Assembly (NCBI RefSeq): GCF_001677475.2
Contig: NZ_CP015229.1
DNA length: 64,000 bases
Strand: one strand, 5' to 3'
Source of the DNA: Escherichia coli
GTDB lineage: Bacteria > Pseudomonadota > Gammaproteobacteria > Enterobacterales > Enterobacteriaceae
Of the stretch, positions 27,946 to 64,000 are shown one piece after another. Each line of letters starts with the position of its first letter. The first letter of the stretch is position 1. The translations under genes and the position numbers were made by a program. The notes under the pieces were generated by a model, which saw nothing but the letters and a program-made list of their open reading frames with translations, had not been told where the DNA came from and ran no database searches.

Positions 27946-28295
27946 TGCTCTCCCTGATTGCTTTAATGAAAAAGTCATATAAGTTGCCATGAACAATGTT
28001 TATTCATCCTGGCGATGACAAGATTCACCATTATTCTTTATGGGTATAACTGTCGGCGCAGAATCCTACCTTTTATCGTGTAACGATGCAAAATAATCCC
28101 GCTATAAATATGAGGGGATAAAGGCGGCCGGCAACAAAATAGCAACCTGATGAAATTTTGACGGAAACAACCACTATTGGTTTGATGATGCCCGACGGCA
28201 GTCCTACTCTTGCGCCACTCGTTCGTCGCTCTGAACGCCAGTGGTTGCAGTGGACACTGGCGTGGTTGGCTCATTGAATAGTGAGGTGCTAGCAC

Positions 28296-28472
28296 ATGAC
28301 GGGTTTCAGGGGTAATACACCAAATACCAATACAATTGCTGATTATATGAGCCAATTGCCGATGTTACAGAAAAGGCTAAAAAATGTAAGAGGCATGCAG
28401 GATGATAAACGCGCTATTGCCCAACAGGGGTTTCTGGAATTAGTCCTGTTCCATGGTCATTACAACTCTTAA
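28296..28472 (+). CDS. Hypothetical small protein (58 aa)
   Basis: ATG 28296 preceded by GAGGTG about 8 nt upstream; no recognisable family; not in ORF track (under 60 aa). Confidence 0.25.
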   Translation: MTGFRGNTPNTNTIADYMSQLPMLQKRLKNVRGMQDDKRAIAQQGFLELVLFHGHYNS

Positions 28473-28882
28473 AACATTACTTCAATATAATTAATGTGTA
28501 TATCATTCCCGATATTAATTTATGAAGTGAATTTGATATATTCCGAATTCTTAATTTACATTACTAATGTATGGGGCATAACGTTAAGATTGCTATGTGC
28601 AGATTAACATATCAGGGTGGGGCGGTAGCGTTTACAGATATTAATCAATTGATGAGAATTATGTTAACTGCGTAATCATTTGCATCGATTATTGATATTG
28701 AAGATAGATTAATAAAAATGCTGAGAATTAATGTTAAAAAATCATAACGGGAAACGTTGATAACTTGCTTTGATTTCATTTTCTATGAAGATGATGTCAT
28801 CAATACTGTATAAAGTGGAAATGTTGAACATCAAAGAGCGTTTGTGTTTTATCTGAAAGATATTATTTCCAGGGGGAAGGAT

Positions 28883-29013
28883 ATGTCATTAAGGAGAATG
28901 ACATCTGGTGAATTAACATTGGCCAGATCGATTTTTGAGAATACAATTGATTATAGCAAGGTATGGATCCACAATGAAAAATATTTGCCTGGTCAAGGGG
29001 AAAGAACAGCGAT
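28883..29013 (+). pseudogene. 5' portion of a host ORF interrupted by the prophage left end
   Basis: ATG 28883 with strong GGGGGAAGGA Shine-Dalgarno; the reading frame runs straight across the Mu-type end at 29014 into phage sequence, so the track ORF 28844..29083 is a host-phage fusion. Confidence 0.45.
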
Positions 29014-29040
29014 TGTATTGATTCACTTGAAGTACGAAAA
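29014..29040 (+). repeat. Prophage left terminal transposase-binding site (L1-like)
   Basis: Begins with 5'-TG; sequence matches the recalled Mu attL terminus. Confidence 0.75.
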
Positions 29041-29352
29041 AAACCGGGAGGACATTGGATTATTCGGGATTTGGCGGGATTAGATTTAGTGGGGCTTGCA
29101 AGCCTGTAGGACAGATTTTAGCCGTTACATCTTGAAACGCGAAAGATTGTTGGAAACAGCTTTTGATTCATTAAAGACACGAAAAGCAATTACTTCACGC
29201 ATCATTTCAAGTACAGCTTCAAAAATGCTTCAAAAACGGTAACAACCAGGCTTTCGGCAAGTGATGTGTGTCAAAAACAATCATCACTGTTTGGGTATCT
29301 TACATATGTAATTACCTAGAGTGAAGTTTATGTCTTAGCTATTACCTGGTTG

Positions 29353-29877
29353 TTATACAGCTTTCTTTACATCGTTTTCTCTTACAGGGAAATTATGTTC
29401 TTTGCCTTCATACTGAGACAAAATCTCTCTCACTTTTTCAGGTGGTAATGCCTGAAGAGTTTGCAGGGTTTTCTGTTGATCCACAGTAATCCCTAATGCC
29501 TCTAATGCCTTATCTTTACTGACAATTGTAGGCATAAGTCCTTTAATCCCTGCTACACGAATGATCTCCACAGCTGCGGCCTGCTCATCTGGTGTTAAGA
29601 AGCTCATTGCATAAATTAGCCTCTCATCAACTGTATGGGCGATTGATGTATGCACTGGTTTATCAGAAAGTGAGGCTCCTTTAATGGCCCTACGTGTTTC
29701 TTCTGGCAGACTGTTGATGTGATACTCATAAGCGACACCTTTCCCACCGTGACGCTGACGTTTTACCCAATCTTCCGCCACAGCTTTCCTGGTAATGTTA
29801 GTCGCCAACTTTGGTACACCAGGCATCCCTTCCAGCTCTTTCGCATTAAACCATTCTTTGATTTCAAAAGACATCAT
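29353..29877 (-). CDS. c: Transposable-phage repressor (Mu c / D108 repressor family)
   Basis: 174 aa, divergent from ner-A-B; N-terminal about 60 aa are roughly 50 percent identical to the N-terminus of the adjacent transposase. Confidence 0.8.
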   Translation of the reverse strand: MMSFEIKEWFNAKELEGMPGVPKLATNITRKAVAEDWVKRQRHGGKGVAYEYHINSLPEETRRAIKGASLSDKPVHTSIAHTVDERLIYAMSFLTPDEQAAAVEIIRVAGIKGLMPTIVSKDKALEALGITVDQQKTLQTLQALPPEKVREILSQYEGKEHNFPVRENDVKKAV

Positions 29878-30062
29878 TTAAAATCCTAGCGATTTCAATA
29901 GAGACAAAATAAATTCATATAAAAATCATGCCGTTATATGAAATCATGGTAAATACTTTCAAATCTCTATTGATTTGAAAATGATTCCACACTACATTGC
30001 ACGATATGCCGTGAGCTACTTTATAGCGTAGCTCACGGGGGAATCTGAAAGGATTACATGAA
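29878..30062. promoter_or_regulatory. Early operator/promoter region between divergent c and ner
   Basis: AT-rich 185-bp divergent intergenic region with several inverted repeats (for example TCAAAT..ATTTGA at about 29958-29978). Confidence 0.6.
30009..30038. promoter_or_regulatory. Perfect inverted repeat CCGTGAGCTAC-N8-GTAGCTCACGG; candidate Ner operator
   Basis: 11-bp arms at 30009-30019 and 30028-30038 with AT-rich 8-bp spacer, 25 bp upstream of ner. Confidence 0.5.
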
Positions 30063-30284
30063 ATGCATATGAATAAAAGAACTAACCGCCAAGATTGGCA
30101 CAGAGCTGACATCGTTGCAGAGCTACGAAAACGCAATATGTCACTAGCTGAATTGGGAAGATCTAATCATCTTTCGTCTTCAACATTAAAAAATGCTTTG
30201 GATAAGAGATATCCGAAAGCGGAGAAAATCATTGCAGATGCACTGGGAATGACACCGCAAGATATTTGGCCGTCTCGATACTAG
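30063..30284 (+). CDS. ner: Ner-family DNA-binding protein (early-operon negative regulator)
   Basis: 73 aa; motifs [14 protein letters not shown] and IWPSRY shared with Mu Ner and E. coli Nlp. Confidence 0.85.
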
Positions 30285-30291
30285 GTGCGCT

Positions 30292-32280
30292 ATGAAAGAA
30301 TGGTATACAGCAAAAGAGTTGCTCGGTTTGGCAGGTTTACCAAAGCAAGCCACTAACATTACACGTAAGGCACAAAGAGAAGGCTGGGAGTTCAGGCAGG
30401 TTGCAGGGACTAAAGGTGTATCATTTGAATTCAATATCAAATCATTCCCTGTCGCATTACGTGCTGAAATTCTGTTGCAACAAGGGAGAATTGAAACAAG
30501 CCAGGGGTATTTTGAAATCGCCCGCCCCACGCTGGAAGCCCACGATTACGATCGCGGGGCACTGTGGAGCAAATGGGATAAAGCCAGCGATTCCCAGCGC
30601 AGACTTGCTGAAAAATGGTTGCCTGCAGTTCAGGCCGCAGACGAAATGCTGAACCAGGGGATTTCAACAAAAACGGCTTTTGCGACCGTTGCAGGACATT
30701 ACCAGGTCAGCGCATCCACTTTGCGAGACAAGTATTACCAGGTACAGAAGTTTGCGAAGCCTGACTGGGCGGCTGCACTTGTTGATGGACGTGGTGCATC
30801 TCGTCGCAATGTTCACAAAAGTGAATTTGACGAGGATGCCTGGCAGTTTCTGATTGCAGATTATCTGCGACCGGAAAAACCCGCCTTCCGCAAATGTTAT
30901 GAGCGTCTGGAACTGGCAGCCCGCGAGCATGGCTGGAGTATTCCCTCCCGTGCCACGGCCTTTCGCCGGATTCAGCAACTGGACGAGGCAATGGTTGTTG
31001 CCTGTCGTGAAGGTGAACATGCACTGATGCATCTGATACCGGCACAGCAGCGAACTGTGGAACACCTGGACGCCATGCAGTGGATCAACGGCGACGGTTA
31101 TCTGCATAACGTCTTTGTACGCTGGTTTAACGGTGATGTGATCCGCCCGAAAACATGGTTCTGGCAGGATGTGAAAACCCGAAAAATTCTGGGCTGGCGC
31201 TGCGATGTGAGCGAGAACATTGATTCAATTCGCCTCTCGTTCATGGATGTGGTGACACGCTACGGCATCCCGGAAGATTTTCACATCACCATTGATAACA
31301 CCCGTGGGGCAGCGAATAAATGGCTGACGGGGGGCGCGCCCAATCGTTACCGCTTTAAGGTGAAAGAGGACGATCCAAAGGGACTGTTTTTACTGATGGG
31401 CGCGAAAATGCACTGGACAAGCGTTGTTGCCGGTAAAGGCTGGGGCCAGGCAAAACCTGTTGAACGTGCTTTCGGTGTTGGTGGGCTTGAGGAATACGTT
31501 GATAAGCATCCGGCACTGGCTGGCGCATATACGGGGCCAAATCCGCAGGCAAAACCTGATAACTATGGCGACCGTGCTGTTGATGCAGAGCTGTTTCTGA
31601 AAACCCTTGCTGAAGGTGTGGCGATGTTCAATGCCAGAACAGGCCGTGAAACAGAAATGTGCGGGGGCAAACTCTCGTTTGATGATGTTTTCGAGCGTGA
31701 ATACGCCAGAACGATTGTGCGTAAGCCAACCGAAGAACAAAAACGGATGCTGTTACTGCCTGCCGAAGCGGTGAACGTTTCACGCAAAGGCGAGTTTACG
31801 CTTAAAGTTGGCGGCTCCCTTAAAGGCGCGAAAAACGTTTATTACAACATGGCGTTAATGAATGCAGGCGTGAAAAAAGTTGTGGTCAGGTTTGATCCGC
31901 AGCAGCTACACAGCACAGTTTATTGCTACACCCTGGACGGTCGGTTTATCTGTGAAGCGGAATGTCTGGCACCTGTTGCATTTAATGATGCTGCGGCAGG
32001 CCGTGAATATCGCCGCCGCCAGAAACAACTGAAATCTGCAACTAAAGCAGCCATTAAGGCGCAGAAACAAATGGACGCGCTGGAAGTTGCTGAACTGCTG
32101 CCGCAGATAGCCGAACCAGCAGCACCAGAATCAAGGGTTGTTGGTATTTTCCGGCCTGTGGGTAACACAGTACGGGTTAAATATCGCACCCCCGATGATA
32201 AATACGAACCCGCTCGTGATGAATATCTGAATCAGTCACTGGATATTCTGGAACAGAAAAGACGTAAAAAAGCCATTTAA
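30292..32280 (+). CDS. A: DDE transposase (MuA family)
   Basis: 662 aa; Mu-transposase-like sequence throughout; N-terminal domain shared with the repressor. Confidence 0.93.
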
Positions 32281-32318
32281 TTAACGTTTAAACAAAATTT
32301 AATTACGAGGTTATTTAG

Positions 32319-33278
32319 ATGAATATTTCCGATATTCGCGCAGGACTGCGCACGCTTGTAGACAATGGAGAAACCACGCTGACACGCATCGCCAGTGAAT
32401 CAGGCGTGGCCCTGAGCACAGTCAGTGGTTTTGTGAATGATAAATATAACGGCAACATGGAATCAGTCGGGCGCACACTGGAACGCTGGCTGGAAAACTA
32501 TCACCGCGCAGAAGAACTGCCGGAACCCCCGCGTTTTGTGGAAACTGCAACAGCCCGTCAAATCTGGACAAGTATGCGTTTTGCTAATCTGACCGGAACC
32601 ATTGCTGTTATCTGTGGCAATCCAGGAGTGGGTAAAAGCGAAGCAGCCCGTGAATTTTGTCGCACTAATAATAATGTCTGGATGATCACCATCGCGCCAT
32701 CCCGTGCCAGTACGCTGGAATGTCTGACTGAACTTGCCGAAGAGTTGGGAATGAATAATGCACCCTGTCGCAAAGGGCCGCTTTCCCGTAATCTGCGTCG
32801 CCGCCTGAAAGGGACGCAGGGACTGGTCATTGTTGACGAAGCTGATCACCTTGACACCGAAGCGCTGGAAGAGCTCCGTCTGTTACAGGAGTCCGCCTGT
32901 ATTGGTCTGGTTCTGATGGGGAATCACCGTGTTTATTCAAATATGACCGCTAATGGCGACAGAACAATTGAGTTTGCCCGTCTGTTTTCCCGTATTGCAA
33001 AGCGCACAGCAATTAATAAAACCAAAGAAGACGATGTAAACGCAATTGCGGATGCCTGGCAGATTACCGGGAAAAATGAACGGGAATTATTACAGCAGAT
33101 TGCACAAACGCCTGGTGCGCTCCGCATTATGAATCAAACGCTGCGCCTTGCTGTTATGAATGCCTTCGGTAAAGGCGAACGTGTTAATGAGGATTATCTG
33201 CGTGAGGCTTACAAAGAGTTAGACCAGGACGTTGATGTTTCGATGCTGCTGGGTGTGCAAGGGGATGCTGAATCATGA
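32319..33278 (+). CDS. B: Transposition ATPase / target DNA activator (MuB family)
   Basis: 319 aa; Walker A GNPGVGKS; immediately downstream of A. Confidence 0.9.
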
Positions 33279-33502
33279 TGTCACGGAATATCAAAATGGC
33301 AACGGAAGTAAAGAGCTGGTTACAGGAGCGCGGCAGCCACGTCAACGAATCCTGGCTGGGCGTGGCCCGCCCGGTGCTTGAAATCACCTGCCCACCACCG
33401 GAGCTTGTCAGGAATGCTGTCAGGATTATGGAGCGTAAATCAGGGGTTGCCCGTTCAGTCTGGACGGCCCGCCTTAATGGTTGCCAGATTATCTGGCGTT
33501 AA
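33275..33502 (+). CDS. Hypothetical early protein (positional analogue of Mu Kil)
   Basis: 75 aa; ATGA overlap with B stop; assignment by position only. Confidence 0.4.

Positions 33503-63835: not shown

Positions 63836-63839
<4 letters not shown>
63816..63839 (+). terminator. Rho-independent terminator after mom
   Basis: CAGCGGC-CAAT-GCCGCTG hairpin followed by TTTTAT. Confidence 0.6.
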
Positions 63840-63999
<160 letters not shown>

Positions 64000-64000
64000 A

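What the first reader, a model, noticed from the sequence alone, without database searches (positions are those of the whole stretch)
29353..30500. Repressor and transposase share an N-terminal DNA-binding domain
About 60 N-terminal residues of the repressor and of the transposase are roughly 50 percent identical, both including ATNITRKA. This is the known Mu arrangement in which repressor and transposase compete for the same operator/enhancer sites, and it confirms the element as a genuine Mu-family phage with intact early control.
Basis: partly seen in the sequence, partly recalled or inferred. Interest (0 to 1): 0.3.

Follow-up and report, generated by a model that had tools for sequence, protein, structure and literature searches.

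The report
Shared repressor/transposase DNA-binding domain, D108-type
The repressor and the transposase of this E. coli Mu-like prophage do share a roughly 60-residue DNA-binding domain, but this was published for phage D108 in 1986, so the finding is correct and ordinary.

Summary
Repressor c (29353-29877, minus strand) residues 6-65 and transposase A (30292-32280) residues 1-60 are 33/60 (55%) identical with no gaps (BLASTP E 6e-18, shuffle z = 32). Both contain ATNITRKA, which is the predicted recognition helix of a winged helix-turn-helix. The similarity stops at about residue 65.

The c-operator-ner-A module is the D108 immunity type: c is 171/174 identical to D108 c, Ner 73/73, and the A N-terminus 70/70. 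The shared N-termini of D108 and Mu repressor and transposase were published by Mizuuchi, Weisberg and Mizuuchi in 1986, so the feature is already known.

New support comes from 30 distinct immunity types of Mu-like phages. In them the two domains co-vary, most strongly in the recognition helix, which fits a shared DNA target. That the two proteins compete for the same sites is inferred here, not shown.

First, the shared domain is not universal: at least 16 Mu-like loci have an unrelated XRE-type repressor. Second, the early-control module looks intact, but the element as a whole does not. Its right end (63837-63919) is of a different transposable-phage type, there is no target-site duplication, and the right flank is P1-like plasmid DNA.

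The parts
29014..29260 (+). Prophage left end (attL). It starts TGTATTGATTCACTTG and carries three Mu-consensus transposase sites: L1 29029-29040, L2 29134-29145, L3 29174-29185.
   Evidence: E. coli chromosomal matches stop at 29013. The alignment with the D108, SfMu and Mu left ends starts at 29014. RAARYRCGAAAR matches are; 3x RCGAAAR.
29353..29877 (-). Repressor gene c, 174 aa, D108 type.
   Evidence: 171/174 identical to D108 c and 54/159 to Mu c. PF02316 E 6.3e-51.
29683..29862 (-). Coding region for c residues 6-65, the shared winged-HTH domain. The recognition helix ATNITRKA lies at 29782-29805.
   Evidence: BLASTP. AlphaFold model with helix 25-35 and beta-hairpin wing 39-53. Foldseek best hits are 1tns and 1qpm.
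29878..30062 (.). Divergent control region between c and ner, the presumed operator/enhancer. It holds a cluster of GATTTBWWA-like repeats at 29860, 29877, 29937, 29957 and 29972, plus GATTTCAAT at 29891. Their role is inferred.
   Evidence: 5 of the 14 window-wide matches fall in 121 bp. The motif recurs 4 times in locus L022, which keeps the ATNI[ST]RKA helix, and is mostly absent (0 to 2 copies) in types with other helices. The motif was derived from this same region, so the enrichment is partly circular.
30009..30038 (.). Perfect 11-bp inverted repeat CCGTGAGCTAC-N8-GTAGCTCACGG, which matches the D108 Ner operator as I recall it from the literature.
   Evidence: I5. Identical in D108.
30063..30284 (+). 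ner, 73 aa.
   Evidence: 73/73 identical to D108 Ner. PF13693 E 1.2e-28.
30292..32280 (+). Transposase A, 662 aa. The shared domain is residues 1-60 (30292-30471), with ATNITRKA at 30349-30372.
   Evidence: PF02316, PF09039, PF02914 and PF09299 all match. 646/662 identical to D108 A. Against Mu A, 41 of 55 mismatches lie in residues 1-71.
32319..33278 (+). Transposition ATPase B, 319 aa.
   Evidence: PF09077 and AAA domains. 77% identical to D108 B.
63837..63919 (+). Prophage right end (...TTTTGCGCGCTTTA). It is not Mu type: 3x TTCAAGATA (on the minus strand) and no RCGAAAR.

Best explanation
Window 29014-33278 is the left end and early-control module of a D108-immunity-type Mu-like prophage inserted in an E. 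coli chromosome. The repressor c and the transposase A each begin with a roughly 60-residue winged helix-turn-helix domain of the same family as the MuA I-alpha and Mu repressor DNA-binding domains. In this phage the recognition helix (ATNITRKA) is identical in the two proteins.

The most likely mechanism is as follows. Both domains recognise the same repeated sites in the 185-bp c/ner intergenic region. Repressor bound there shuts the divergent early promoter, and it also occupies the sites that the transposase N-terminal domain needs as a transpositional enhancer. Immunity therefore blocks transcription and transposition together.

Shown here: the homology, the fold, the identical helix, the D108 identity, the module boundary, and the covariation across phages. 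Inferred from Mu: binding of both proteins to the same DNA, and their competition.
For: Pairwise homology: 33/60 identical, E 6e-18, shuffle z = 32.

Family and fold: both proteins match PF02316 far above the threshold. c matches the solved MuA I-alpha domain (1tns, E 6.8e-8) and the Mu repressor DNA-binding domain (1g4d/1qpm, E 5.9e-4) by sequence. The AlphaFold model (pLDDT 75.6) hits 1tns (TM 0.69/0.71) and 1qpm (TM 0.64/0.71) as the only strong Foldseek matches. ATNITRKA lies in the model's helix 25-35.

D108 type: 96.7% nucleotide identity over 3.3 kb. c is 171/174 identical, Ner 73/73, and the A N-terminus 70/70.

Module boundary: DNA homology to Mu starts only at window ~30480. Against Mu A, 41 of 55 mismatches are in residues 1-71 and residues 72-615 have 2. 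The A N-terminal domain therefore travels with c, the operators and ner.

Identity within a phage versus between phages: c-A identity is 55% for D108 and 41% for Mu. Between the two phages, c-c identity is 28% and A-A N-terminal identity is 44%.

Covariation: across 30 immunity types from 80 IMG/VR loci, mean within-phage c-A identity is 0.50 against 0.38 between types. In the recognition segment it is 0.505 against 0.28. None of 10000 permuted pairings reaches either value.

Synonymous sites are not conserved between the two domains: 17 same codons against 13 expected, 59% nucleotide identity. The match is therefore kept at protein level.

Literature: MuA I-alpha contacts the enhancer O1-O2 (PMC3562280). 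Rep shares homology with the transposase (PMC3820752, citing Harshey 1985 and Mizuuchi 1986).
Against: No binding data exist for this element. The candidate operator motif was derived from the region in which it is then counted. The consensus scans found no strong sigma-70 promoter in the intergenic region, and the only IHF-like site has one mismatch and is not above chance. The permutation test does not correct for relatedness among the 30 types. At least 16 Mu-like loci keep the I-alpha-like domain on A while using an unrelated XRE-type repressor, so an enhancer-binding domain on A does not by itself imply a shared repressor target.
Confidence: 0.9

Rival explanations
1. The two domains are relics of an ancient duplication and no longer share DNA specificity. 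The resemblance is historical only.
For: Homology alone cannot distinguish shared ancestry from shared function. Some Mu-like phages use an unrelated repressor DNA-binding domain while A keeps its domain.
Against: An ancient duplication followed by independent drift predicts equal c-A identity within and between phages. Observed values are 0.50 against 0.38 overall and 0.505 against 0.28 in the recognition segment, with 0 of 10000 permutations reaching them. The 8-residue recognition helix is identical in c and A here, although 5 of its 8 codons differ.
Confidence: 0.06
2. The similarity reflects recent gene conversion or duplication between the 5' ends of c and A within this phage.
For: Within-phage identity exceeds between-phage identity, as recent conversion would also predict.
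Against: Nucleotide identity is only 59%. Among 31 identical residues with degenerate codons, 17 use the same codon against 13 expected from codon usage. The D108, SfMu and window copies all keep the same c/A divergence.
Confidence: 0.03
3. The match is a chance or low-complexity resemblance.
For: None.
Against: E 6e-18, z = 32. Both proteins match a curated family and the solved structures.
Confidence: 0

Closest known systems
Phage D108 control region (c, operators, ner, 5' end of A): Mizuuchi, Weisberg and Mizuuchi 1986, Nucleic Acids Res 14:3813; GenBank GQ357916
   Same: Same gene order and sizes. c is 171/174 identical, Ner 73/73, A 646/662, and the A N-terminal 70 residues 70/70. The same Ner inverted repeat and the same left end are present, with 96.7% nucleotide identity over the region. 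The title of that paper states this very observation (reference 52 in PMC3820752).
   Different: c has three substitutions (Y50 for N50, A80 for V80, D133 for E133). There are about 6 substitutions in the 185-bp control region. A residues 610-656 and B (77% identity) are diverged. The late region is below 80% nucleotide identity to D108, and the right end is of another type.
Phage Mu repressor (Rep/c) and MuA domain I-alpha (PDB 1qpm/1g4d and 1tns/1tnt)
   Same: Same winged-HTH fold and same family. The repressor and the transposase N-terminus are homologous (41% in Mu). The A core from residue 72 onward is near identical to the window's A.
   Different: Different immunity: c-c identity is 28% in the domain, the recognition helix differs (SVAGVHYRA / TSAGVIYVA against ATNITRKA), and there is no DNA homology left of window ~30480. 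The GATTTBWWA motif is absent from the Mu operator zone.
Mu-like phages with XRE-type or CI/LexA-type repressors (IMG/VR loci L013, L018, L036, L060, L066 and others; E. coli prophages of strains VL40 and STEC346)
   Same: Divergent repressor / ner-like / transposase / ATPase layout. The transposase still starts with an I-alpha-like domain.
   Different: The repressor DNA-binding domain is HTH_3 (with or without Peptidase_S24), not PF02316, so repressor and transposase share no domain.

Membership tests
Mu/D108-type repressor-transposase shared winged-HTH domain (Pfam PF02316, MuA I-alpha / Mu repressor DBD) | Both proteins match the family profile above the curated threshold | tested here: met
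   c 172.7 bits and A 139.5 bits against a cut-off of 23.3.
Mu/D108-type repressor-transposase shared winged-HTH domain (Pfam PF02316, MuA I-alpha / Mu repressor DBD) | Winged helix-turn-helix fold like 1tns / 1qpm | tested here: met
   Sequence hits to 1tns (6.8e-8) and 1g4d/1qpm (5.9e-4). Model pLDDT 75.6. Foldseek hits 1tns (TM 0.69/0.71) and 1qpm (TM 0.64/0.71), with the next hit at E 0.3.
Mu/D108-type repressor-transposase shared winged-HTH domain (Pfam PF02316, MuA I-alpha / Mu repressor DBD) | Homology confined to the N-terminal 60-75 residues of a divergently transcribed repressor and transposase | tested here: met
   c 6-65 aligns with A 1-60, and nothing is similar beyond. c lies on the minus strand and ner-A-B on the plus strand.
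Mu/D108-type repressor-transposase shared winged-HTH domain (Pfam PF02316, MuA I-alpha / Mu repressor DBD) | Both domains bind the same operator/enhancer DNA | not testable with these tools
   Indirect support only: identical recognition helix, covariation across 30 types, and a motif that tracks with the helix type.
Phage D108 (immunity type) | c, Ner and the A N-terminal domain are essentially identical to D108 and distinct from Mu | tested here: met
   171/174, 73/73 and 70/70 identical to D108. Against Mu: 54/159, 36/71 and 31/70.
Phage D108 (whole genome, Muvirus mu) | Collinear high nucleotide identity across the late region and right end | tested here: not met
   Only about 14-17% of 32300-57000 matches Mu, D108 or SfMu at megablast level. 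The right end differs.
Intact Mu-type transposable prophage | Left end with three transposase sites of the Mu consensus | tested here: met
   L1, L2 and L3 at 29029, 29134 and 29174.
Intact Mu-type transposable prophage | Right end with Mu-consensus sites in inverted orientation and a terminal CA | tested here: not met
   No Mu right-end sequence is present. The right end at 63919 ends in TTTA and has 0 RCGAAAR and 3 TTCAAGATA.
Intact Mu-type transposable prophage | 5-bp target-site duplication flanking the element in one replicon | tested here: not met
   The left flank ends in GCGAT and the right flank starts with TATAC. The uninterrupted chromosome continues AACCCCAAACGGGG, whereas the right flank matches IncY P1-like plasmids.

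The most novel reading that the evidence does not exclude
The element in the window may be a natural hybrid, formed by homologous recombination across a roughly 94-95% identical late region. One parent would be a chromosomal D108-type prophage. The other would be a second, distantly related transposable prophage (VL40 type, transposase under 30% identical) sitting in a P1-like phage-plasmid. The product would be a chromosome-plasmid fusion whose bridging prophage keeps a complete D108 repressor / operator / Ner / A / B control module. It would pair a Mu-type left end with a right end that its own transposase probably cannot recognise: regulated, but immobile as a unit.
Probability: 0.3. Interest if true: 0.4.

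Novelty: already known. Interest (0 to 1): 0.12.

Why it matters
For the finding itself this matters little. It re-derives from raw sequence a textbook feature of Mu and D108 published in 1985-86, and it places the prophage's immunity module as D108 type. The covariation analysis adds modest value. Across 30 immunity types, the recognition helices of repressor and transposase change together, which generalises the two-phage observation. A sizeable minority of Mu-like phages have uncoupled the two by using an XRE-type repressor. The practical point for annotation is that an intact control module does not mean an intact prophage. Here the right end and the right flank belong to something else.

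Tried and rejected
1. I tested whether the homology extends past residue 65, because Pfam PF02316 aligns 134 positions to both proteins. It does not: z = 1.65 and -0.5. The Pfam model appears to be composite, since its positions 70-133 match the central part of Mu-c-like repressors even when the N-terminal domain is XRE type (L013).

2. I looked for recent gene conversion between c and A. This was rejected on codon evidence.

3. I looked for the classic papers (PMC339817, PMC391396, PMC4486318). They are not held, so only titles and citing statements could be used. Details of the D108 operators and the Ner site rest on my memory of the DuBow laboratory papers.

4. Consensus promoter and terminator scans gave nothing useful in the control region.

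5. The IHF consensus gave one 1-mismatch site at 29924-29936, not above chance.

6. An Rfam scan of 28000-33500 found no RNA family.

7. I first assumed the prophage ran off the window. This was rejected when E. coli prophages with other flanks were found to end at window 63919.

8. I tried to locate the recombination crossover by comparing with the STEC1575 and VL40 prophages. Both are about 94-95% identical through the late region, so it cannot be resolved.

Full report
**1. What is at the coordinates**

The region holds four ORFs: a 174-aa ORF on the minus strand (29353-29877), a 185-bp gap, a 73-aa ORF (30063-30284), a 662-aa ORF (30292-32280) and a 319-aa ORF (32319-33278).

- Pfam assigns the 174-aa protein to PF02316, the 'Mu DNA-binding domain'.
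- The 73-aa protein matches the Ner-type HTH_35 family.
- The 662-aa protein matches PF02316 plus the Mu I-gamma, DDE_2 and Mu transposase C-terminal domains.
- The 319-aa protein matches MuB.

Megablast against 50,697 phage records gives phage D108 (96.7% over 29014-32300), with Mu_3F6 and SfMu close behind. Mu itself matches only from window ~30480 onward. At protein level c is 171/174 identical to D108 c, Ner is 73/73 and A is 646/662. Against Mu the figures are 54/159, 36/71 and 608/662.

**2. The observation**

BLASTP of c against A aligns c 6-65 with A 1-60 at 33/60 identical, with no gaps and E 6e-18. Five thousand shuffles give a z of 32. ATNITRKA is present in both proteins, at 29782-29805 (minus strand) and at 30349-30372. 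Nothing beyond residue 65 is similar.

**3. What the domain is**

By sequence, c hits the solved MuA I-alpha domain (1tns, E 6.8e-8) and the Mu repressor DNA-binding domain (1g4d/1qpm, E 5.9e-4). An AlphaFold model of c 1-78, built on 43 paired-domain sequences, has pLDDT 75.6. It shows a short strand, a helix, a second helix at 25-35 ([11 protein letters not shown]), a beta-hairpin at 39-53 and a C-terminal helix. Foldseek against the PDB returns 1tns and 1qpm as the only convincing matches, with TM 0.64-0.71. The block that is identical in c and A is therefore the predicted recognition helix of a winged helix-turn-helix.

**4. The domain belongs to the immunity module**

Against Mu A, 41 of the 55 amino-acid differences lie in residues 1-71, and residues 72-615 differ at two positions. 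The Mu/D108 DNA heterology ends at window ~30480, which is A codon ~63. So c, the control region, ner and the first ~65 codons of A are exchanged as one block.

Identities within that block are as follows.

| Comparison | Identity |
|---|---|
| c vs A, D108 type (within phage) | 55% |
| c vs A, Mu (within phage) | 41% |
| c vs c, D108 type vs Mu | 28% |
| A vs A N-terminus, D108 type vs Mu | 44% |

**5. Covariation test**

A scan of IMG/VR with A gave 80 Mu-like loci with A 44-100% identical. A profile of the domain found it on both the divergent repressor and on A in 52-53 loci, which collapse to 30 distinct types.

| Region of the domain | Mean c-A identity within a phage | Mean c-A identity between types |
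|---|---|---|
| Whole domain | 0.50 | 0.38 |
| 13-column recognition segment | 0.505 | 0.28 |

None of 10,000 permuted pairings reaches either within-phage value. An ancient duplication with independent drift predicts no such excess. Recent gene conversion is unlikely, because nucleotide identity is 59% and same-codon use (17) is close to the 13 expected. The simplest reading is selection for a common DNA target. One caveat is that the types are related to one another and the permutation does not correct for that.

**6. The control region**

- The 185-bp gap carries a perfect inverted repeat, CCGTGAGCTAC-N8-GTAGCTCACGG, at 30009-30038. It is identical in D108 and matches what I recall as the D108 Ner operator.
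- A GATTT(C/G/T)WWA-like motif occurs five times in 29860-29980, out of 14 matches in the whole 64-kb window.
- The same motif occurs four times in the operator zone of locus L022. Its operator DNA looks roughly two-thirds identical to the window's by eye, and its proteins keep the ATNI[ST]RKA helix. The motif occurs 0-2 times in the 27 types with other helices.
- These are candidate shared binding sites. Because the motif was derived from this region, I rate them as inferred.
- Promoter and IHF consensus scans were uninformative.

**7. Mechanism**

For Mu, the I-alpha domain of the transposase contacts the enhancer, which is the operator segment O1-O2 (PMC3562280). The repressor shares homology with the transposase (PMC3820752, citing Harshey 1985 and Mizuuchi 1986). 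By analogy, c bound in 29860-30000 would repress the early promoter and also deny A its enhancer. The homology, fold, module structure and covariation are shown here. The binding and the competition are inferred.

**8. Novelty**

[quoted passage not shown] The finding is therefore already known. The D108-type module occurs in 39-47 of 5,426 complete E. coli genomes, at different loci.

**9.

The shared domain is not universal.

- At least 16 of the loci that hold enough upstream sequence have a repressor with an HTH_3 (XRE) domain.
- That domain is fused either to a Mu-c-like C-terminal part or to a Peptidase_S24 domain.
- In these loci A still carries the I-alpha-like domain.

The element as a whole is also not a simple intact prophage.

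- E. coli chromosomal homology stops at 29013.
- The insertion lies in a small Rhs-associated gene beside ansP.
- The right end is inside the window, at 63919.
- Window 63837-63919 matches the right ends of prophages in strains VL40, STEC346, FDAARGOS_943 and STEC388, each followed by different host genes.
- Where their early regions are intact, those prophages have 696-699-aa transposases (translated for VL40 and STEC346) that are only 23-33% identical to the window's A, domain by domain. They have XRE-type repressors and left ends with 3x TTCAAGATA.
- The window's left end has 3x RCGAAAR and no TTCAAGATA. Its right end has the reverse.
- There is no target-site duplication: the left flank ends GCGAT and the right flank starts TATAC.
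- The unoccupied chromosomal site continues AACCCCAAACGGGG. Window 63920-64000 is instead 98-100% identical to IncY P1-like phage-plasmids.
- The late region is about 94-95% identical to both a D108-ended prophage (STEC1575) and the VL40 type.

Recombination between two prophages would produce exactly this arrangement, whether it happened in the cell or in an assembler. With only 81 nt of right flank I cannot tell which.

**10. Verdict**

The feature is already known, and interest is low. The mismatched right end and flank are the only unusual things seen, and they lie outside the finding.

Noticed in passing
window 63837-64000 (with 29009-29013): The prophage right end is at 63919 (...TTTTGCGCGCTTTA) and is of a different transposable-phage type: 3x TTCAAGATA and no Mu-type RCGAAAR. 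The next 81 nt match IncY P1-like phage-plasmids at 98-100%. No target-site duplication exists (GCGAT on the left, TATAC on the right). The cause is either a chromosome/plasmid fusion through two related prophages or an assembly chimera.
   Followed up: partly
window 37000-62900: The late region has Mu-like gene order but no match at 80% nucleotide identity or better in 50,697 phage records. It is about 94-95% identical to uncharacterised E. coli prophages (STEC1575, VL40) that carry two unrelated kinds of end/transposase module. The shared late block is evidently combined with different transposition modules.
   Followed up: partly
window 32119-33278 (A residues 610-656 and gene B): A is nearly identical to D108 and Mu A up to residue ~609, then differs at 13 of the last ~50 residues. 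B is only 77% identical to D108 B. In Mu this C-terminal part of A contacts MuB, so this looks like a second co-inherited module (A C-terminus plus B).
   Followed up: partly
loci L013, L018, L026, L036, L047, L050, L054, L059, L060, L062-L064, L066, L074, L079, L083; also L091 979-1542 and L094 2593-3180: Many Mu-like phages keep the I-alpha-like domain on the transposase but have a repressor with an XRE-type HTH. That HTH is fused either to a Mu-c-like C-terminal part or to a LexA/CI-type S24 peptidase. In those phages operator and enhancer recognition cannot rest on a shared domain.
   Followed up: partly
window 29728-29730 (c residue 50): The window's c has Y50, as do SfMu and nearly all 30 types (conserved A-x-E-Y strand of the wing). 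The D108 reference has N50. The reference may carry a mutant (possibly temperature-sensitive) repressor allele.
   Followed up: no
window c 66-147 and A 61-141 (Pfam PF02316): The 134-position Pfam model aligns end to end with both proteins, although the two share nothing after residue 65. The model seems to be a composite of repressor and transposase sequences, so its domain boundaries should not be read as one domain.
   Followed up: partly
window 28844-29013; locus L004 3384-3914: The insertion interrupts a small gene annotated 'type IV secretion protein Rhs', between ansP and a vgrG (type VI secretion) gene. None of 5,426 complete E. coli genomes has this junction.
   Followed up: yes
L090 2690-2720 with L086 2110-2125; L094 2340-2350 with L096 135-150: The VL40-type prophages appear to end 5'-TATGAC...CTTTA-3' and to be flanked by 4-bp repeats (TTCA, ATTC). 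This contrasts with the TG...CA termini and 5-bp duplication of Mu.
   Followed up: partly
window 29924-29936: There is a one-mismatch IHF-consensus site (AATCATGCCGTTA) in the middle of the control region, where Mu has its IHF site. On its own it is not statistically distinguishable from chance.
   Followed up: no
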